Positions 1 through 63,065 of a stretch of 64,000 bases of DNA are shown in pieces (positions within the stretch are counted from its first letter, which is position 1; the number at the start of each line of letters is the position of its first letter). Source of the stretch: a virus; the IMG/VR virus record IMGVR_UViG_3300046791_000587, positions 7,108 to 71,107 of that record; one strand, 5' to 3'. The notes beneath the pieces were generated by a model. The model made no database searches. It was not told where the DNA came from and saw only the letters and a program-made list of their open reading frames with translations. Made by a program: the position numbers and the translations under genes.

Positions 1-78
1 CGCGACGATGTCGCACTCCTGCAACGTGTAGGATTCGCTTCATCGGATCTGGATTGGGAAGGTCCGTTTGGCTGGGCC

Positions 79-360
79 TTGCAGCAGACCGGAGGGATGT
101 GTGCCGCCCTGGTGTTCTCTACCGAGGGCCGCGAGGTTGTGGTGACAGCGATGGATGGGATGTTTTTGGTGGGCGAGTATGAGCGTGCCAAGGATTCCGA
201 GGAGTCGTGGGCGACGCCGCTCCACACGTGGGAATCGGCGCACTTCTACCGCGATCATGTAATGTGCGGCCCCGACGAGGTGACCCATCTCGTGATGGAG
301 TGCACACGAAAGGCGATTGACATGGTGCGCAACCCCGCGCCCGTACCGGGTTGCGCGTAG
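79..360 (+). CDS. hypothetical protein
   Basis: ORF abutting the next ORF (TAG 358-360, ATG 361); true start may be ATG 97. Confidence 0.5.
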   Translation: MQQTGGMCAALVFSTEGREVVVTAMDGMFLVGEYERAKDSEESWATPLHTWESAHFYRDHVMCGPDEVTHLVMECTRKAIDMVRNPAPVPGCA

Positions 361-747
361 ATGACGGCTGAACACGAAGCGGGGGCGGGCGCCAAGTGTG
401 CAGAGGGCCCCGACGGGTTCTGTCTCACCTGTGGCGTGGAGATGACGGTGTGTAACGTTTGCCACGGGATCGGCTACCACCTCGATAGCTGTACCGCGTT
501 CGAGGCCGAGATTGCGGCCGTGGCGACCATGATGGACGGCGACACGATCGCGCGGGCGGTACGCCGAGGGAAGGATGGGATCACCGCTGACATCGCAGCT
601 GGGGTAGTTCCTGCGGTGAGGTCATTCGCAGAACTTCACAACTACGTTGACGCTAACGAGTACCTGGATTCCACCGGGCTGGAGAATAGCGCCGAGATCC
701 AGCGCCAACTCGATGCATGGATGCGATCCGGTCGGAGGGAGCCGTGA
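361..747 (+). CDS. hypothetical protein with N-terminal Cys cluster
   Basis: CxxC..CxxC..C motifs; coupled to the following ORF by TGATG overlap. Confidence 0.55.
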   Translation: MTAEHEAGAGAKCAEGPDGFCLTCGVEMTVCNVCHGIGYHLDSCTAFEAEIAAVATMMDGDTIARAVRRGKDGITADIAAGVVPAVRSFAELHNYVDANEYLDSTGLENSAEIQRQLDAWMRSGRREP

Positions 748-30380: not shown

Positions 30381-30737
30381 GTGATGTCGTACTTCCGCAA
30401 GGCCAGCATTCGCCCTCGCGCACTGTCCGGGGTGTCGACGACATTCCCGGTCCACTGGAAGCCGCGCGTCCCGTTCGGTGCGATGGGATCGCTGGGCGAC
30501 GACACGTCAGGCGCGGCCACGATCACCAGCCCCACGCTGACCGTGACCGCGCCACCCGAGACATTACAGTGGCAAGCCAACGTGCTTTCTCAACTCCAGG
30601 CTGGGGTGGCCACCCTGCAGAAGGCAGAGCTCCAGAAGTGGCTCCAGATCGCCGCGACGCTGTCGATCCCGGTGGCCGGCGCGATCTGGAAGATGATCTT
30701 CAAGAGAGGCGCCGCCAGCATCGGAACCGGGATCTAG
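30381..30737 (+). CDS. candidate virion membrane protein (leader-GD family)
   Basis: MSYFRK...GAMGSLGDD; C-terminal hydrophobic helix. Confidence 0.6.
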   Translation: MMSYFRKASIRPRALSGVSTTFPVHWKPRVPFGAMGSLGDDTSGAATITSPTLTVTAPPETLQWQANVLSQLQAGVATLQKAELQKWLQIAATLSIPVAGAIWKMIFKRGAASIGTGI

Positions 30738-30742
30738 GCAGC

Positions 30743-31219
30743 GTGGAGTTTTATCACGGCTCCACTGGACGGATGGAGGTGGGAGCGACGCTGAAAGCCA
30801 GGGAGACCCAGGGCTGGTTTCCTGAAGCCATCGAGGGTGCGATGGAGGCCGGGCGACCGAGCGACGTGCCCTCTCGGCTTTCCTCCTTCTTCCTGGTCGA
30901 TGACCCTCGCCTCATCAGGGATGCCGGCGGGCCGACCGACTACGTGTACCGCGTGAAGCCAGTCGGCCTCTACAGCAAGCACCACCACGGCTGGATGGGG
31001 GCGGTCTACGAAGTGATGATCCCCTTCATCCGTCACCGTGCGCCTCAAGAGGAGAAGGACGCTGCCGCACCTCGGATGATCCACATCGGCGAATGGGTCC
31101 ACAACTACTGGGAGGGGGTGCCCTACCGGCACAGACCGGGACAGGCGAGAACGACATGGGAGTTCCTGGCCCCTGAGATCACAATCGAGGAGGAGATCTC
31201 CGCGCCGTTTGGGCCCTGA
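30743..31219 (+). CDS. ADP-ribosyltransferase-like protein (Arr/DUF2441-like)
   Basis: FYHGS, RPSDVPSRLSSFF, YVYRVKP, WEFL. Confidence 0.6.
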   Translation: MEFYHGSTGRMEVGATLKARETQGWFPEAIEGAMEAGRPSDVPSRLSSFFLVDDPRLIRDAGGPTDYVYRVKPVGLYSKHHHGWMGAVYEVMIPFIRHRAPQEEKDAAAPRMIHIGEWVHNYWEGVPYRHRPGQARTTWEFLAPEITIEEEISAPFGP

Positions 31220-31347
31220 TTGCCAGATGCCACGCCACGCCTAGCCGGGTGCCGCGAGCGTATCGATTCCGCTCTCTGCTCACGCGCGAAGTAGCGTGAT
31301 TCCCGGCGCGGCTCCGTGATAACGTCCTCCCCATCTAGGAGGGCGCC

Positions 31348-32373
31348 ATGCCGTTCACGGGAACACCCATCGTCACACAGGTATCCGACAATCTGTGCAG
31401 GATCACAGGAGTCTCTGTTCTTGGGGCCCAGACTGGCTCGATCGGTCTTCACGAGTTTCCGGTTACGAACTTCGGGACGCGCCCGGACATCCGGTTGCCG
31501 GCGTCATTTCGCCCTCGCACATACGAGTACGGCAACGCGGCTGCGCATCCGGTGTCGCTGCAGGATTCGATTCAGGTGTGGTCGAACTACATCGAACCCG
31601 GCGCCATCATCGCGCCCGTTCTGATCCAGAAGGCCGGGACCACGCCCGAAGACTTCGTGGCCATCTTCGCCTACCCGGTGTCGGGGCCATCGACCATTCT
31701 TCGGAACGCTCAGGCCTTCGCCGTGCTCGGCGGGACGGCGGTGAACAACGCGGGCGCGACAGCGGTCACCGGGGACCTCGGGGTGGCGCCAGGAGCCATC
31801 GTGACAGGGTTCCCGCCGGGAACCGTCGACGACGGAACGATCGAGATCAACACGCCGCTGGCGCAGCAGGCGCATACCGACGCCACCGATGCCTTCGTCG
31901 ACCTGGCCGCGCGCACCCCGACGCAGGATCTGAGCGGTACCAACCTGGGCGGCCTGACGCTTACTCCGGGCGTCTACAAGTTCACCAACGCCGCGCAGCT
32001 CACGGGCGCGCTCACCCTCGACGCGGAAAACAACGTGTCGGCGTCGTTCGTGTTCCAGGTCGGCACCACGATGACCTTCGACCCCGCCTCCACGGTCACG
32101 ATCATCAACGTGAGCACCCTGAACGTGGCGGCCGGCAACCTGCTGCTGTGGCAGGTGGGTACCACGGTGTCCATCGGCGCTGGAGCGGCGCTCACAGGGT
32201 CCGTCGTGGCCGCTGGCGACATCACGGCGGGCGCGGCGGCCACCATGACCGATGGTCGGCTGCTCTCGCTGGGCGGGACCGTGGCGCTCGATACCGACAC
32301 CTTGGCGCTCCCGCCGGCGCTCGCCGAGGGGCTGACGACTGGCGAGCTCGAGATCTACGTTAGGTTCCACTGA
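31348..32373 (+). CDS. beta-sandwich family protein 1 with inserted DUF3494 ice-binding domain
   Basis: FAVLGGTAVNNAGATAVTGDLG, TLTPGVYKF, LTLDA..FVFQ, WQVG, GRLL hallmark motifs inside a scaffold shared with three paralogs. Confidence 0.85.
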   Translation: MPFTGTPIVTQVSDNLCRITGVSVLGAQTGSIGLHEFPVTNFGTRPDIRLPASFRPRTYEYGNAAAHPVSLQDSIQVWSNYIEPGAIIAPVLIQKAGTTPEDFVAIFAYPVSGPSTILRNAQAFAVLGGTAVNNAGATAVTGDLGVAPGAIVTGFPPGTVDDGTIEINTPLAQQAHTDATDAFVDLAARTPTQDLSGTNLGGLTLTPGVYKFTNAAQLTGALTLDAENNVSASFVFQVGTTMTFDPASTVTIINVSTLNVAAGNLLLWQVGTTVSIGAGAALTGSVVAAGDITAGAAATMTDGRLLSLGGTVALDTDTLALPPALAEGLTTGELEIYVRFH

Positions 32374-32426
32374 AAACAGCCGGGGCTGCGTGGACTGCGG
32401 CGAGCGCGCTCGCTATGGTCGGCTAC

Positions 32427-32873
32427 ATGGCATTCATCGGAACCCCCGTCCTGGAACTTGTCACCCCGAACTTGGTCCGCATCACTGGCGTGTCCCTCGC
32501 TGCCAACGCGTCCGGCACCATCGGATTCGCTGACGCAAGCGGGTCGCCGCTTCCGGAGGTCGTTCTGCCGCGCGGTTTCCGGGTGCCCTCAGGTCAGGGC
32601 CATCTGGTCGCGTTGACCGACGGCATCCGCGTGACCGTCACGCCGGTGAGCGCTGGCCCGTTCACCAACCTTCCGCCCTCCATCGTGAAGGCCGGGACCA
32701 CGCCCGAGGACTTCACGATCGGCATCACGAACACCAAGGTCGACGAGACGACGCAGACGCTCGAGATCTACATCGAGTCGGTGTCCTCTGCGAAGTCCCC
32801 GACGGTCAACATCATCGGTCCCACCGGCGACATCCAGGGCCCGCTGATCGTCGGCGACGAGCGCATCGGCTAG
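32427..32873 (+). CDS. beta-sandwich family protein 2
   Basis: MAFIGTP...VRITGVSL...SGTIG...KAGTTPEDF...LEIYI. Confidence 0.75.
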   Translation: MAFIGTPVLELVTPNLVRITGVSLAANASGTIGFADASGSPLPEVVLPRGFRVPSGQGHLVALTDGIRVTVTPVSAGPFTNLPPSIVKAGTTPEDFTIGITNTKVDETTQTLEIYIESVSSAKSPTVNIIGPTGDIQGPLIVGDERIG

Positions 32874-32917
32874 TTCCCGCTGGACCCCGCCGCCGCCAGT
32901 CGGATAGGCTGGCCATC

Positions 32918-33310
32918 ATGGCATTCACCGGGGTGATCACAGCGACGCAGGTCAACGACCGCACGGTGCGCATCACCGGCGCAACCCTCGCACCGTCCGA
33001 CAGCGGGACGATCGGGCTGGCGGGTTCCACTGGAGCGCCAGACATCACCCTGCCGGCGGCCTTCGAGGCGGCTGCGTACAGCTACCAGGGCAACCCCGTC
33101 GGGCTGCAGGACAGCCTGGACGTTGATATCAATATGGTCAGCACAGGGCCGCTGACCAACCTCATGCCGTCGGTGCAGAAGACCGGAACAACCAACGCCG
33201 ACTTCCTGATCACGGTCGTGAACACCAACGTCGCTTCGGCGACCCAGACGATGGAGATCGTGATCACGTTCCTGGTGGGTCGCGTGGGTGAGCCGTCCCG
33301 GCTGTCGTAG
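32918..33310 (+). CDS. beta-sandwich family protein 3
   Basis: MAFTG...VRITGATL...SGTIG...KTGTTNADF...MEIVI. Confidence 0.75.
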   Translation: MAFTGVITATQVNDRTVRITGATLAPSDSGTIGLAGSTGAPDITLPAAFEAAAYSYQGNPVGLQDSLDVDINMVSTGPLTNLMPSVQKTGTTNADFLITVVNTNVASATQTMEIVITFLVGRVGEPSRLS

Positions 33311-33341
33311 CGCGGTGTGATACATTCCGCGGCGGACCACC

Positions 33342-34151
33342 ATGAGCCGCAATCGAAACCTCCCATCCGCCATCCCGCCCAACCGGCCACCCCCAGAGGA
33401 CGGCACCAAGTATCGCCTGCGCGACCGAGAGGGCTCGCCCCCTACGGTATGGGGCGAGAACCTCACCCACACCGAGGCGCGTGTCCTGCGCGACAGGGTG
33501 ACGGCCGCCAAGAAGAGCCGGAACATGGAGATCGAGCCGATGCCTGGACCGGAGGTCGACTCGCTCGACGATCTCTCGGTTCCCACGCCTGCGCCGGCGC
33601 ATGTCGCTCCGCCGTCGAACCTGGGCACCAACTACGAGGTGGCGTCGGAGATGGTCGCGACGACTCTGGCAGCCGACGGTGTGATCAGCAAGATCCCCCC
33701 CGACCACGAGCTGCTCGTCAATGGCCAGGCGCGCGCTGTGCCGACGCGCGTCCGGAAGAACGATGTGGTGGAGTGCTTCTCACTGGCGCCGCTGGCAGCG
33801 CAGGTGCGCGGTGCTGCGGCCGACGCGGTCGCGCAGGTCATCCGGCAGAAGCGCCGCGTTCCGGTCGATGTGACAGTGAAGCATCCCGCTCCGCGCACCA
33901 CCGCCGCGCCGCCCGACCGCTCCATGTCGAATCGCCCGGTTGTGGTTCGGCTCGGCTCCCCGCCCGCCACGCCGCCCAAGCCGCTGCCGTCGCCACTCAG
34001 GGTCGCCACGCTCCAGGACGGTGAGGTGATGTCAGACGACGCCATCACCGATGCCGAGCTCCCAGACCTCGCCGGTGACCTGGGCGGCGGACCCAGCGAT
34101 GCCGATGTCGAACATGCGCGTCGGCAGGCAGAGGCGGATCGGACGGGCTGA
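33342..34151 (+). CDS. Pro-rich hypothetical protein
   Basis: Long GC3-biased ORF. Confidence 0.55.
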   Translation: MSRNRNLPSAIPPNRPPPEDGTKYRLRDREGSPPTVWGENLTHTEARVLRDRVTAAKKSRNMEIEPMPGPEVDSLDDLSVPTPAPAHVAPPSNLGTNYEVASEMVATTLAADGVISKIPPDHELLVNGQARAVPTRVRKNDVVECFSLAPLAAQVRGAAADAVAQVIRQKRRVPVDVTVKHPAPRTTAAPPDRSMSNRPVVVRLGSPPATPPKPLPSPLRVATLQDGEVMSDDAITDAELPDLAGDLGGGPSDADVEHARRQAEADRTG

Positions 34152-34452: not shown

Positions 34453-35145
34453 ATGGAAAGGCCTGACCCCAAGAAGTGCTGCATCCTGGTTCCGTCGCGA
34501 GATGGGATCGATCCGGAATGCGAACGCGCGCTGTCCGAGCTGGCTCGCCGCAGCTACCACCTGCGCTTCATGCGTGGGGTGACCTCGATAGACCAGGTGC
34601 GATGCCAGATGGCGACCGACGCGCTCGAGAGCGGGTTCGAGGAGCTCTTCTGGATCGATGATGACGTCGTGTTCAACCCCGATGACGTCGATCGCCTGCG
34701 CTCGTCGGGGTTGCCGATCATCGGCGGCGTGTACCCCAAGAAGGGGGAGCCGCAACTGGCGGTCCGCTGGAAGGAGGGCACGACCAGCGTGACCCTCGGC
34801 GAAGGCGGCTCGGTCGTGGAGGTCAAGTACGCGTCCACAGGATTCCTGCTCACCCACGCGAGCGTGTACGACGCCCTCATCGAGCGCGGGATGATGGCGC
34901 CGTCGTCGATCGGGCAGTTCGGGAGGCGAATGACCCCGTACTTCCAGCCGATGGTTGTCCAGGAAAACGGCGTCGAGCGGTACCTCGCCGAGGATTGGTC
35001 ATTTTGCCACCGCGCGACCGAGATCGGCCTCAAGATCTGGGTCGACACCCGGCCGCGCCTGATGCACGTCGGCCGGTACGCCTACTGCTGGGACGACCTG
35101 ATCCCGCGCGACCGGGTACCCTCGCTCACCGTTCACCTCGACTGA
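34453..35145 (+). CDS. GT-A fold glycosyltransferase (GT2-like)
   Basis: LFWIDDDVVF (DxD), IIGGVYPK, GFLL.H..V, EDWSFC, HVG. Confidence 0.85.
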   Translation: MERPDPKKCCILVPSRDGIDPECERALSELARRSYHLRFMRGVTSIDQVRCQMATDALESGFEELFWIDDDVVFNPDDVDRLRSSGLPIIGGVYPKKGEPQLAVRWKEGTTSVTLGEGGSVVEVKYASTGFLLTHASVYDALIERGMMAPSSIGQFGRRMTPYFQPMVVQENGVERYLAEDWSFCHRATEIGLKIWVDTRPRLMHVGRYAYCWDDLIPRDRVPSLTVHLD

Positions 35146-35192: not shown

Positions 35193-35555
35193 ATGGCATT
35201 CACCGGAACCCCTGTCGTGAAGCAAATCTCCGACCGCATCGTGCGGATCACGGGGCTGTCCCTGGCCGGCAGTGCCAGCGGCACCATCGGCCTGAACGGG
35301 GCAACGGGCACCCCACCCGATGTCAGGCTCCCGGTTGGGTTCCTGCCCGCGCCGTACGCCTACGATGGCGGCGGGCTGGTGACGCTCGCCGATTCGGTCA
35401 AGCTCGAGTACACCCCGACGAACCTCGTCGCCAGCTTCGTGGCGGTCGACACGACCAAGTCGGGGACCACGACGGCCGATTTCCGCATCACCATGCACAA
35501 CTCGAGCGGGTCAGCGAGCCCCGACGTCGAGATGTACGTCTCGTTCCACGAGTAG
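35193..35555 (+). CDS. beta-sandwich family protein 4
   Basis: MAFTGTP...VRITGLSL...SGTIG...KSGTTTADF...VEMYVSFH. Confidence 0.75.
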   Translation: MAFTGTPVVKQISDRIVRITGLSLAGSASGTIGLNGATGTPPDVRLPVGFLPAPYAYDGGGLVTLADSVKLEYTPTNLVASFVAVDTTKSGTTTADFRITMHNSSGSASPDVEMYVSFHE

Positions 35556-62489: not shown

Positions 62490-63065
62490 TTACTGAACGT
62501 CGCGAGTTTGCAAACCGTCGAGCATGAACAGGATGTTCTTGATGTCGGTCTCGTCTCCGGTGTTGAGCCCGTTCAGCGCGCTCGTCGTGCCGATCGCGAA
62601 GAAGTCCGCCTGGGCGGCGAAGTTCTGGCGAACCGGCACGATGATCGGCCGTGCGAGCTTCAGGATCGACGCCTGCTCCGGGGTTCCGTGCGAGAAGATC
62701 GACGCCGTGGAGTCGAAGCCCCACACGCCGCCGCCCGCCGGGTAGTACCAGCACGGCGCCTGGAACATCGGCTTGGTGCCGACGACCAGGGTCCAGAACA
62801 GCTGGCTGGTCACGTTCAGGTAGTTGTCGCGACGGTTCGGGCCGTCGAAGAACATGAAGCAGCGCAGCGCCAGGATGACGTAGGTCTGATCCGACGCGAG
62901 CTGGCCGGCGGTCTGGAGGTTGGTCAGCGCCAGGTTGCCGATGTTGGCGTTGCCGAACAGCTTCGTGCTGTTCACGATCGGCGTCGTCGGATCGCCGGTG
63001 GTCCGGATGAGGGTGTCCCAGAGCGGCTGGTGCAGGCGCTCGCGGTATCCATGAAGACGAGGCAT
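62490..63065 (-). CDS. candidate single-jelly-roll major capsid protein
   Basis: 191 aa, beta-rich, strongly biased codons, TNLxxAGQL, YVILALR, LARPIIVP, MLDGLQTRDVQ; flanked by structured spacers. Confidence 0.55.
   Translation of the reverse strand: MPRLHGYRERLHQPLWDTLIRTTGDPTTPIVNSTKLFGNANIGNLALTNLQTAGQLASDQTYVILALRCFMFFDGPNRRDNYLNVTSQLFWTLVVGTKPMFQAPCWYYPAGGGVWGFDSTASIFSHGTPEQASILKLARPIIVPVRQNFAAQADFFAIGTTSALNGLNTGDETDIKNILFMLDGLQTRDVQ

What the first reader, a model, noticed from the sequence alone, without database searches (positions are those of the whole stretch)
31348..32373. DUF3494 ice-binding domain inserted into a loop of a candidate virion protein
Seen: the protein aligns with three paralogs (32427, 32918, 35193) up to ...SGPST and again from LTTGELEIYVRFH. 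About 205 aa (approx. 31696-32314) with DUF3494 motifs (FAVLGG..V.N.G...TGDLG, LTPGVY, FVFQ, WQVG, GRLL) sit before the final beta-strand. Known: DUF3494 beta-solenoids bind ice and inhibit recrystallisation. Inference: a surface display scaffold presenting an ice-binding domain on the virion, for cryoprotection, ice adhesion or attachment.
Basis: partly seen in the sequence, partly recalled or inferred. Interest (0 to 1): 0.8.

Follow-up and report, generated by a model that had tools for sequence, protein, structure and literature searches.

The report
Ice-binding-like domain in viral trimer scaffold
A gene of an uncultured 80-kb soil-type virus carries a complete ice-binding-like (DUF3494) domain spliced into a loop of a small protein that is predicted to form trimers; related viruses put other binding domains in the same scaffold, so it looks like a swappable attachment head, and whether it binds ice is untested.

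Summary
ORF 31348-32373 (341 aa) is a ~120-aa beta-sandwich shared with three neighbouring paralogs. A full DUF3494 domain (PF11999, E 1.1e-41, profile 1-207/208) sits before its last strand.

With the insert removed, the protein aligns end to end with the 120-aa paralog. The chimera is old: at least 13 protein clusters share the architecture, and two of them lie in complete 75-83-kb relatives.

The scaffold is a new family with no Pfam match and no clear structural relative. It has 278 clusters, nearly all from ~80-kb viral contigs. A trimer is predicted with high confidence.

Other members carry BclA_C, DUF2935 or unknown domains in the same loop. DUF3494 also occurs in a second loop. This looks like a modular display platform.

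The ice reading is weaker. The domain is 41% identical to a proven ice binder and keeps a flat, Thr-rich face. However, that face is the most variable part in the viral orthologs and the most conserved part in the bacterial homologs, which suggests a changing ligand such as a host surface.

Virion location is inferred, not shown. The scan noted this paralog family before on this same genome only.

The parts
31337..31342 (+). Ribosome-binding site AGGAGG, 5 nt upstream of the ATG
   Evidence: Read directly from the sequence
31348..32373 (+). Whole gene (P0001, 341 aa plus stop): scaffold with inserted DUF3494 domain
   Evidence: ORF list; GC3 0.84; full-length orthologs at 42-52% identity
31348..31695 (+). 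Scaffold, N-terminal part (residues 1-116): all strands of the beta-sandwich except the last
   Evidence: Aligns with paralogs P0002-P0004. The scaffold profile matches residues 1-119. AF2 strands at 3-13, 16-25, 29-33, 73-79, 92-96 and 104-108
31696..32334 (+). Inserted segment (residues 117-329): linker, DUF3494 beta-solenoid, linker. The Pfam match itself covers residues 126-319, i.e. 31723-32304
   Evidence: PF11999 E 1.1e-41. Model pLDDT 97-98 in this part. Foldseek match to 6eio: TM 0.85 by target, rmsd 1.5 A, 41% identity. phmmer against 6eio: E 2e-34
32335..32370 (+). Scaffold, last strand (residues 330-341, ...TTGELEIYVRFH)
   Evidence: Strand 334-340 in the model. It equals strand 112-118 of P0004.
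32427..32873 (+). Paralog P0002 (148 aa): scaffold plus a 30-aa C-terminal tail
32918..33310 (+). Paralog P0003 (130 aa)
35193..35555 (+). Paralog P0004 (120 aa). This is the conserved core type, and it lies next to the glycosyltransferase-like gene in the three relatives' loci examined that carry it
   Evidence: AF2 model pLDDT 95. Predicted homotrimer
34453..35145 (+). Glycosyltransferase-like gene (230 aa, phrog_1574), the conserved neighbour of the P0004-type scaffold gene
   Evidence: phrog_1574 E 1.6e-19. Only a sub-threshold Glyco_transf_21 hit, E 0.086. Adjacency in L006, L007 and L008

Best explanation
P0001 is a two-part protein. Its base is a ~120-aa beta-sandwich from a new family that is a near-universal gene of a clade of uncultured 75-86-kb viruses with direct terminal repeats. 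The base most likely assembles into a compact three-fold symmetric trimer.

A complete DUF3494 beta-solenoid is spliced into the last hairpin loop, which lies close to the three-fold axis. In the DUF3494 fold the first and last coils stack on each other, so the domain's two ends are adjacent. It can therefore sit in a loop without disturbing the base.

Each trimer would show three solenoids pointing away from the base. Because relatives place other extracellular-type binding domains in the same loop, I read the scaffold as a swappable-head surface protein of the particle (a spike, knob or decoration). I read the DUF3494 head as an adhesion module.

Its most likely ligand is a variable host-associated surface, such as a cell-envelope or exopolysaccharide structure used for adsorption. 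Ice is a real but less likely ligand.

Shown: the chimera, its conservation and the modularity of the family. Supported by models only: the fold and the trimer. Inferred: virion location, orientation and ligand.
For: Domain identity and fold:
- PF11999 is matched full length, E 1.1e-41.
- The DUF3494 part of the model has pLDDT 97-98. It superposes on the proven ice binders 6eio and 7bwy at rmsd 1.5 A.

Insertion site:
- The domain-deleted protein aligns end to end with P0004.
- The final strand is present in the model.

The architecture is heritable:
- 13 full-length proteins share it, at 42-52% identity where measured.
- These include the complete relatives G002 and G004. In G004 it is the only family member.

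The family is modular:
- BclA_C sits in the same loop in P0294 and in the neighbouring loop in P0372.
- DUF2935 is inserted in P0319, and unknown inserts occur in P0186, P0309 and P0347. All of these proteins end in ...LEIYV...
- DUF3494 sits in a different loop in P0286, P0298 and P0301.

Trimer:
- Complex prediction with three copies of P0004 gave a score of 0.94; the best of 3 controls was 0.00.
- The pass mark was reached by 20 of 30 proteins solved as pairs of one chain and by 1 of 23 solved as single chains. These counts hold only roughly here, because I used my own alignment and three copies.
- The runs agree in at least 98% of contacts, and the partner's pLDDT is at least 93.
- Contacts 72:72 and 82:82 lie on the axis. 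Residue 104, at the insertion loop, touches 78-80 of a neighbour. So both BclA_C insertion sites are near the axis. This fits BclA_C being a trimeric C1q/TNF-like domain (established knowledge).

Extracellular logic:
- The bacterial homologs have signal peptides or PEP-CTERM anchors. The viral proteins have none. Exposure would therefore need lysis or a place on the particle.

Gene position:
- In G002, G004 and L005 the gene lies in the late block, directly after the M23 peptidase gene and on the same strand.

Variable ligand:
- I took the 24 outward positions that match the AnpIBP ice-binding face.
- In the 13 viral orthologs these are more variable than the rest of the domain (entropy ratio 1.41; 3 of 5000 random position sets as high).
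- In bacterial homologs of equal divergence they are less variable (ratio 0.73; 26 of 5000 as low).
Against: - There is no direct evidence that the protein is in particles.
- The scaffold has no detectable relative among solved or predicted viral structural proteins, nor in SSIP-1.
- In this genome the gene lies about 22 kb from the capsid operon.
- The trimer is a model only. The orientation of the solenoid faces in the full-length protein was not modelled.
- High variability of the binding face could reflect relaxed constraint rather than selection by changing receptors.
- DUF2935, one of the other inserts, is not an obviously extracellular domain.
Confidence: 0.5

Rival explanations
1. The head is a working ice binder shown in many copies on the particle. 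It would anchor virions to ice or brine veins, or limit ice recrystallisation damage during soil freeze-thaw.
For: - The head is 41% identical to EfcIBP (6eio; E 2e-34) and 38% identical to AnpIBP (7bwx; E 5e-25). Both are experimentally active ice binders.
- AnpIBP residues S153 and T156 cut activity to 17% when mutated (PMC7277481). They align with T272 and S275 here.
- 75% of the 24 outward B-face residues are A, G, S or T, against about 70% reported for AnpIBP. T-x-T and T-x-D rows like those of EfcIBP are present (PMC7277481).
- Multivalent display is reported to raise antifreeze activity (reviewed in PMC5334608). A trimer on a particle would give such display.
Against: - The putative ice-binding face is the most variable part of the domain among viral orthologs, although ice is an unchanging ligand.
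- The nearest relatives are uncharacterised proteins of soil-type bacteria.
- The same loop carries unrelated heads such as BclA_C in sister proteins.
- Two of four complete relatives lack any DUF3494.
- The habitat could not be established with the tools.
Confidence: 0.2
2. The protein is not part of the particle. The trimer is a soluble or host-directed factor. It could be made in the infected cell and released at lysis, coat the host surface or matrix, or act as an auxiliary cryoprotective gene as proposed for free-standing viral PF11999 genes.
For: - Virus-encoded PF11999 genes have been reported as auxiliary genes in Arctic viromes (PMC11515562).
- In this genome the gene lies outside the capsid operon, in a cluster with a glycosyltransferase-like gene.
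- No structural homolog was found.
- The DUF2935 insert in one relative is not a typical surface domain.
Against: - There is no signal peptide, so export would rely on lysis.
- The gene lies in the late block of three relatives.
- The base is a conserved gene in all five complete genomes examined, which is unusual for an auxiliary gene.
- Swapping of heads on a symmetric oligomeric base is the usual pattern of viral attachment proteins (established knowledge).
Confidence: 0.2
3. The chimera is an accident: an assembly artefact, a recent fusion or a decaying gene with no function of its own.
For: Two database relatives (P0262, P0266) are truncated after part of the DUF3494 domain and end in Arg/Pro-rich tails that look frameshifted.
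Against: - The open frame is intact and has a strong ribosome-binding site.
- The same architecture occurs in 13 divergent proteins from independent samples and in two other complete genomes.
- The domain matches the full-length profile and is modelled at pLDDT 97-98.
Confidence: 0.03

Closest known systems
EfcIBP (PDB 6eio) and AnpIBP (PDB 7bwx/7bwy): DUF3494 ice-binding proteins without a capping head
   Same: Same Pfam family and fold. Identity is 41% and 38%, and the predicted model superposes at rmsd 1.5 A. The B face is flat and rich in small residues and Thr, with T/S at the two positions proven important in AnpIBP (PMC7277481).
   Different: Those are free, secreted, single-domain proteins of cold-adapted organisms. 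Here the domain has no signal peptide and is embedded in a loop of a viral trimer-forming protein. Its B face varies strongly between orthologs. Activity is untested.
Secreted or anchored DUF3494 proteins of soil-type bacteria (e.g. those labelled Thermoanaerobaculia and Phycisphaerales in the database)
   Same: These are the closest sequence relatives of the inserted domain, at 50-53% identity over the domain. They are a probable source of the domain.
   Different: They carry signal peptides, PEP-CTERM anchors, tandem DUF3494 copies or He_PIG/Big domains. Their B face is conserved. None has the viral scaffold.
Free-standing PF11999 genes in viral contigs, reported as auxiliary cryoprotection genes (PMC11515562)
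   Same: A virus-encoded DUF3494 domain.
   Different: Those were reported as whole genes presumed to act for the host, in polar marine viromes. Here the domain is an insertion within a conserved viral protein family of ~80-kb viruses. It sits at a site that also takes other binding domains.
Modular viral attachment proteins with a symmetric base and a swappable distal head, such as the PRD1 P5 trimeric spike, the adenovirus fibre knob and phage receptor-binding proteins (comparison from established knowledge, not tested here)
   Same: A predicted trimeric beta-sandwich base, loops near the axis that tolerate whole-domain insertions, different heads in related viruses, and a fast-evolving binding face.
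   Different: No sequence or significant structural similarity was found to any of them. The heads are inserted within a loop rather than appended to an end. Virion location is unproven.
Salisaeta icosahedral phage 1 (SSIP-1, JN880423), which earlier scan notes name as the nearest studied virus
   Same: Only a faint link: one ORF at genome positions 1-512 matches SSIP-1 gp34 at E 5.6e-5. Four Pfam hallmark families of tailed phages also give no hit.
   Different: SSIP-1 has no homolog of the scaffold family by hmmsearch or hhalign, and no DUF3494.

Membership tests
DUF3494 / Ice_binding (PF11999) | Sequence match to the family profile above the curated cut-off, covering the whole domain | tested here: met
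   143.2 bits against a cut-off of 28.7; profile positions 1-207 of 208; E 1.1e-41. A six-frame genome search confirmed it.
DUF3494 / Ice_binding (PF11999) | Right-handed beta-solenoid with a long alpha-helix packed alongside | tested here: met
   The AF2 model has pLDDT 97-98 in this part, a helix at 170-187 and repeated short strands. Foldseek TM by target is 0.85-0.94 and rmsd 1.5 A to 6eio and 7bwy. The top 31 PDB hits are all DUF3494 ice binders. This is a predicted structure, not a solved one.
Functional ice-binding protein | Flat ice-binding face (B face) dominated by small and hydroxyl residues at the positions defined in AnpIBP | tested here: inconclusive
   18 of 24 outward positions are A, G, S or T, and T272 and S275 lie at the AnpIBP S153 and T156 sites (PMC7277481). 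However, the face is the most variable surface among viral orthologs, and the same composition is found in uncharacterised soil homologs.
Functional ice-binding protein | Measured thermal hysteresis, ice shaping or recrystallisation inhibition | not testable with these tools
   Needs recombinant protein and ice assays.
Functional ice-binding protein | Occurrence in an ice-associated habitat | not testable with these tools
The sample identifiers were not found in the paper library. The database gave no names.
New viral scaffold family (no Pfam; here 'MAFTG...LEIYVxFH' beta-sandwich) | N-terminal M-[AP]-F-x-G start, conserved R-I-T-G, L-P..F and K.G.. motifs, and a C-terminal LEIYVxFH strand | tested here: met
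   M1, F3, G5, R18, I19, G21, L50, P51, F54, K95, G97 and F103 are invariant across the orthologs and paralogs. The C-terminal strand is present.
New viral scaffold family (no Pfam; here 'MAFTG...LEIYVxFH' beta-sandwich) | Compact all-beta fold that assembles as a three-fold symmetric oligomer | tested here: met
   This was tested on the paralog P0004, not on P0001 itself. The monomer model has pLDDT 95 and pTM 0.86. The trimer score is 0.94; the best of 3 controls was 0.00. The mark was reached by 20 of 30 solved one-chain pairs and by 1 of 23 single chains; these counts hold only roughly here, because my own alignment and three copies were used. Runs agree in at least 98% of contacts, and pLDDT is at least 93. 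Model only.
Virion structural protein (spike, knob or decoration) | Presence in purified particles | not testable with these tools
   The virus is uncultured and no proteome is available.
Virion structural protein (spike, knob or decoration) | Homology to a protein proven to be structural | tested here: inconclusive
   No significant match. PDB Foldseek best E 0.055. VIA wide search best Z 5.5, generic jelly-roll or cupin-like. BFVD best E 8.7e-3 with TM 0.37. Atlas TM at most 0.48. SSIP-1 proteins: none. INPHARED phages: none.
Virion structural protein (spike, knob or decoration) | Gene located in the late or morphogenesis block | tested here: inconclusive
   Met in three relatives (G002/L004, L005 and G004/L010), where the gene follows the M23 peptidase gene on the operon strand. 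Not met in this genome, where the gene is at 31.3 kb and the capsid block is at 53-64 kb.
Viral auxiliary (host-benefit) ice-binding gene, as in PMC11515562 | Stand-alone, host-like gene that can act in or for the host cell (normally secreted) | tested here: not met
   The domain is embedded in a virus-specific protein and has no signal peptide. The maximum Kyte-Doolittle 15-residue window is 0.99, against 2.05-2.26 in bacterial homologs.

The most novel reading that the evidence does not exclude
The particle of an ~80-kb tailless-type soil virus is studded with trimers that each show three working ice-binding solenoids. That would make the virion a natural multivalent ice binder that sticks to ice or brine-vein surfaces or resists freeze-thaw damage. 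As far as my searches went, no virus structural protein has been reported to bind ice.
Probability: 0.15. Interest if true: 0.85.

Novelty: new variant of a known kind. Interest (0 to 1): 0.62.

Why it matters
Two things are new, and both can be tested.

First, a previously undescribed protein family is present in all five complete genomes examined from a clade of large uncultured viruses. It has 278 clusters, no Pfam entry and no clear structural relative. It accepts whole folded domains in at least three loops. Such a natural insertion-tolerant trimer is a candidate host-recognition module for viruses whose attachment machinery is unknown. It could also serve as a display scaffold for protein engineering.

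Second, it places a DUF3494 domain in a virus-specific protein rather than in a free host-like gene. If the head binds ice, this would be, to my knowledge, the first ice-binding virion component and a natural example of multivalent antifreeze display. If it binds a host surface, that would support the view that much of the DUF3494 family outside cold habitats consists of general adhesins. The contrast I measured, with the binding face conserved in bacteria and hypervariable in viruses, already leans that way.

Tried and rejected
Scaffold fold and sequence searches:
- Fold searches with the pLDDT-95 model of P0004 found no convincing relative. The results were PDB Foldseek best E 0.055, VIA wide best Z 5.5 with cupin, CBM3, BTV VP7 and luteovirus coat, BFVD best E 8.7e-3 at TM 0.37, and Atlas TM at most 0.48. 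I therefore do not call it a jelly-roll capsid or penton protein.
- tblastn of P0001, P0004 and the putative capsid protein (62490-63065) against 50,697 phage records gave no match.
- hmmsearch and hhalign of the scaffold profile against all 57 SSIP-1 proteins gave nothing above noise.

Host and habitat:
- A scan of bacterial and archaeal genome contigs with P0004 found no relative, so there is no host clue.
- The listing of cluster members returned no organism names.
- The paper search for the IMG sample identifiers gave no hits.

Other inserts and neighbours:
- Pfam at E up to 1 on the unknown inserts of P0186, P0309, P0347 and P0291, and on the neighbouring genes, gave nothing usable.
- The Atlas feature search on two of these inserts scored below 0.9.

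Domain tree:
- Only the quick tree of DUF3494 domains finished.
- The viral domains sit on long branches. The second-site (class B) domains are split off with 99% support.
- The tree cannot decide whether the domain was captured once or twice.

Rejected idea:
- I considered a signal-peptide-dependent secreted protein, because the bacterial homologs are secreted. I rejected it because the N-terminus is a conserved beta-strand with no hydrophobic stretch.

Full report
**Setting**

The window is bases 7108-71107 of a 79,908-bp IMG/VR virus record with 127-bp direct terminal repeats, rated complete. G+C is about 65% and there are no tRNA genes.

Pfam and PHROG scans of the largest ORFs found DUF5131, GP88, a tyrosine integrase, a PAPS reductase and an AAA ATPase. 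They found no terminase, portal or HK97 capsid. Six-frame searches of the whole genome with Terminase_6N, TerL_ATPase, Phage_portal and Phage_capsid were also empty.

Earlier notes of this scan describe the genome as a tailless, membrane-containing soil virus distantly related to SSIP-1. I could confirm only the missing tailed-phage hallmarks and one faint hit to SSIP-1 gp34 at E 5.6e-5. I use that reading as context, not as evidence.

**The observation**

ORF 31348-32373 (+) encodes 341 residues (P0001). It has GC3 of 0.84 and an AGGAGG site five bases before the ATG.

Pfam PF11999 (Ice_binding, DUF3494) matches residues 126-319 over 207 of 208 profile positions, at E 1.1e-41.

Three neighbouring genes encode proteins of 148, 130 and 120 residues: P0002 at 32427, P0003 at 32918 and P0004 at 35193. 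They are 35-38% identical to the first ~116 residues of P0001 and have no Pfam family.

If residues 117-329 are removed, P0001 aligns globally with P0004 from the first Met to the C-terminus...LEIYVRFH against ...VEMYVSFHE. That C-terminal motif ends 147 of the 266 family members collected. It is found in 2 of 111 bacterial DUF3494 proteins.

**Structure**

An AlphaFold2 model of P0001 was built on a 53-row alignment. It has mean pLDDT 85.9, with 97-98 over the DUF3494 part, 47-89 over the base, and a final strand at 334-340.

Its 31 significant PDB matches are all DUF3494 ice binders. The best are EfcIBP (6eio; 41% identity, rmsd 1.5 A) and AnpIBP (7bwy; 38% identity, rmsd 1.5 A). phmmer gives E 2e-34 and 5e-25 for these two.

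P0004 was modelled on 114 homologs. The model has pLDDT 95 and pTM 0.86 and is an all-beta sandwich of about nine strands. Its strand 112-118 equals strand 334-340 of P0001, so the insertion lies in the hairpin loop 104-111 of the base.

The AnpIBP paper orders the solenoid coils as beta1, beta6, beta5, beta4, beta3, beta2 (PMC7277481). The first and last coils are therefore neighbours and the two chain ends of the domain are adjacent. That explains why the whole domain fits in a loop.

**The scaffold is a new, widespread viral family**

A word-indexed search with a profile of the base found 129 proteins of about 115-135 residues without Pfam domains. Many lie on contigs of 75-93 kb. The exhaustive HMMER search found 278 clusters at 50% identity.

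Five complete genomes with terminal repeats hold 1 to 4 members each. This genome has four.

The P0004 type lies beside a glycosyltransferase-like gene (phrog_1574) in the three relatives' loci examined that carry it (L006, L007, L008). It sits within a conserved module: a 218-aa membrane protein, a 118-aa protein, a variable slot, a 269-aa protein, the scaffold gene and the GT-like gene.

No convincing structural relative was found in the PDB, BFVD or the ESM Atlas. The best VIA Z score was 5.5, to generic cupin or jelly-roll-like sandwiches. SSIP-1 has no homolog.

**The chimera is old and the family is modular**

Thirteen full-length proteins share the P0001 architecture; the eight aligned in full are 42-52% identical to P0001. 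Two of them lie in complete genomes, G002 and G004, and in G004 it is the only family member.

In G002, G004 and a 43-kb contig the gene sits in the late block. It follows the M23 peptidase gene directly and lies on the operon strand. In this genome it lies instead in the variable slot at 31 kb.

Longer family members carry other inserts and still end in the family's last strand:
- BclA_C in the same loop (P0294).
- BclA_C in the preceding loop on the same pole (P0372).
- DUF2935 (P0319).
- Three inserts of unknown family (P0186, P0309, P0347).
- An N-terminal extension (P0291).

Three proteins (P0286, P0298, P0301) carry DUF3494 in a different loop, after scaffold position ~40. So the same kind of domain entered the same scaffold at two sites.

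A quick tree separates these second-site domains with 99% support. All viral domains sit on long branches, so one capture or two remains open.

**Oligomer**

Three copies of P0004, supplied with their alignment, were predicted to form a closed trimer.
- The score was 0.94 in all runs, and the best of three controls was 0.00.
- The pass mark was reached by 20 of 30 proteins solved as pairs of one chain and by 1 of 23 solved as single chains. These counts hold only roughly, because I used my own alignment and three copies.
- The runs agree in at least 98% of contacts, and the partner's pLDDT is at least 93.
- Fold searches found no similar solved complex, so a pass from memory is unlikely.

Residues 72 and 82 meet their own copies on the axis. 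Residue 104, at the start of the insertion loop, touches 78-80 of a neighbour. Both BclA_C insertion sites therefore cluster near the three-fold axis on one pole. This suits a domain known to be a C1q/TNF-like trimer (established knowledge). The result supports a trimer but does not prove one.

**Is it on the particle?**

This step is inferred. The arguments for it are:
- The bacterial DUF3494 homologs are secreted or anchored (signal peptides, PEP-CTERM), whereas the viral proteins start with a conserved beta-strand and have no hydrophobic leader.
- The gene lies in the late block of three relatives.
- The base is conserved in all five complete genomes examined.
- Exchangeable heads on a symmetric base are the usual design of viral attachment proteins.

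The arguments against are:
- There is no homology to any proven structural protein.
- The gene lies outside the capsid operon in this genome.

**Does it bind ice?**

For ice binding:
- The closest solved relatives are active ice binders.
- AnpIBP S153 and T156, whose mutation cuts activity to 17%, align with T272 and S275 (PMC7277481).
- 18 of the 24 outward B-face positions are A, G, S or T, and T-x-T and T-x-D rows are present.

Against ice binding:
- I compared the variability of these 24 positions with the rest of the domain.
- In the 13 viral orthologs (mean pairwise identity 0.50) the face is more variable than the rest. The entropy ratio is 1.41, and 3 of 5000 random position sets are as high.
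- In bacterial homologs thinned to 60% identity (mean identity 0.48) it is less variable. The ratio is 0.73, and 26 of 5000 sets are as low.
- Ice is an invariant ligand, so it gives no reason for such diversification. A changing host surface does.
- DUF3494 proteins also occur in the tropics and hot springs and are thought to bind various substrates (PMC7783341).
- Two of four complete relatives lack the domain.

One caveat applies. Ice-binding faces of proven DUF3494 proteins are themselves poorly conserved in sequence, so this argument is suggestive only. The habitat could not be checked.

**Verdict**

The display-scaffold idea is supported and extended: the scaffold is a new trimer-forming family with several kinds of inserted heads. 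Virion location is plausible but unproven. Ice binding is possible but not the best-supported ligand.

Virus-encoded PF11999 genes have been reported before as auxiliary genes (PMC11515562). I found no report of a DUF3494 domain embedded in a conserved viral protein of this kind.

The scan had already noted the four-paralog family on this same stretch. It had not noted it on other DNA.

Noticed in passing
window 30738-33341, compared with L007:8217-8963: The stretch between the 118-aa gene (30381-30737) and the 269-aa gene (33342-34151) is a variable slot. Here it holds the DUF3494 chimera and two paralogs. In the complete relative G002 it holds a 248-aa paralog (38% identity) of the protein encoded at 62490-63065. 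That protein is 95% identical between the two viruses and was flagged earlier as a capsid-operon product.
   Followed up: partly
window 34453-35145 and 35193-35555; L006, L007, L008: The P0004-type scaffold gene lies next to a glycosyltransferase-like gene (phrog_1574; only a sub-threshold Glyco_transf_21 hit) in the three relatives' loci examined that carry it, in either orientation. This raises the question of whether the scaffold or the particle is glycosylated.
   Followed up: partly
window 30770-31219 (+): An open frame directly upstream of the chimera encodes about 149 residues, including an F-Y-H-G-S motif. It has no Pfam match even at E up to 1. Its third-position G+C fell below the cut-off used for gene calling (0.72; no value was computed), so it is unclear whether it is a gene.
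   Followed up: partly
P0294, P0372, P0319, P0186, P0309, P0347, P0291 (metagenomic relatives): Scaffold-family members carry other inserted domains: BclA_C at two different loops, DUF2935, three unknown inserts of 100-150 residues and one N-terminal 240-residue extension. All of them keep the family's C-terminal strand.
   Followed up: partly
P0286, P0298, P0301 (metagenomic relatives): DUF3494 is inserted after scaffold position ~40 instead of before the last strand. This is a second, separate insertion site for the same kind of domain in the same scaffold.
   Followed up: partly
P0262 and P0266 (metagenomic relatives): Two relatives break off part-way through the DUF3494 domain and end in Arg/Pro-rich tails. 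They look like frameshifts or assembly errors.
   Followed up: no
whole genome G000 (79,908 bp): There is no match to Terminase_6N, TerL_ATPase, Phage_portal or Phage_capsid in six frames. The only similarity to SSIP-1 is a weak hit of the ORF at genome positions 1-512 (-) to the structural protein gp34 (E 5.6e-5).
   Followed up: partly
bacterial DUF3494 homologs P0011-P0123: In the bacterial homologs, the 24 positions that match the AnpIBP ice-binding face are clearly more conserved than the rest of the domain. This suggests that the soil-bacterial proteins share a common ligand, whatever it is.
   Followed up: partly
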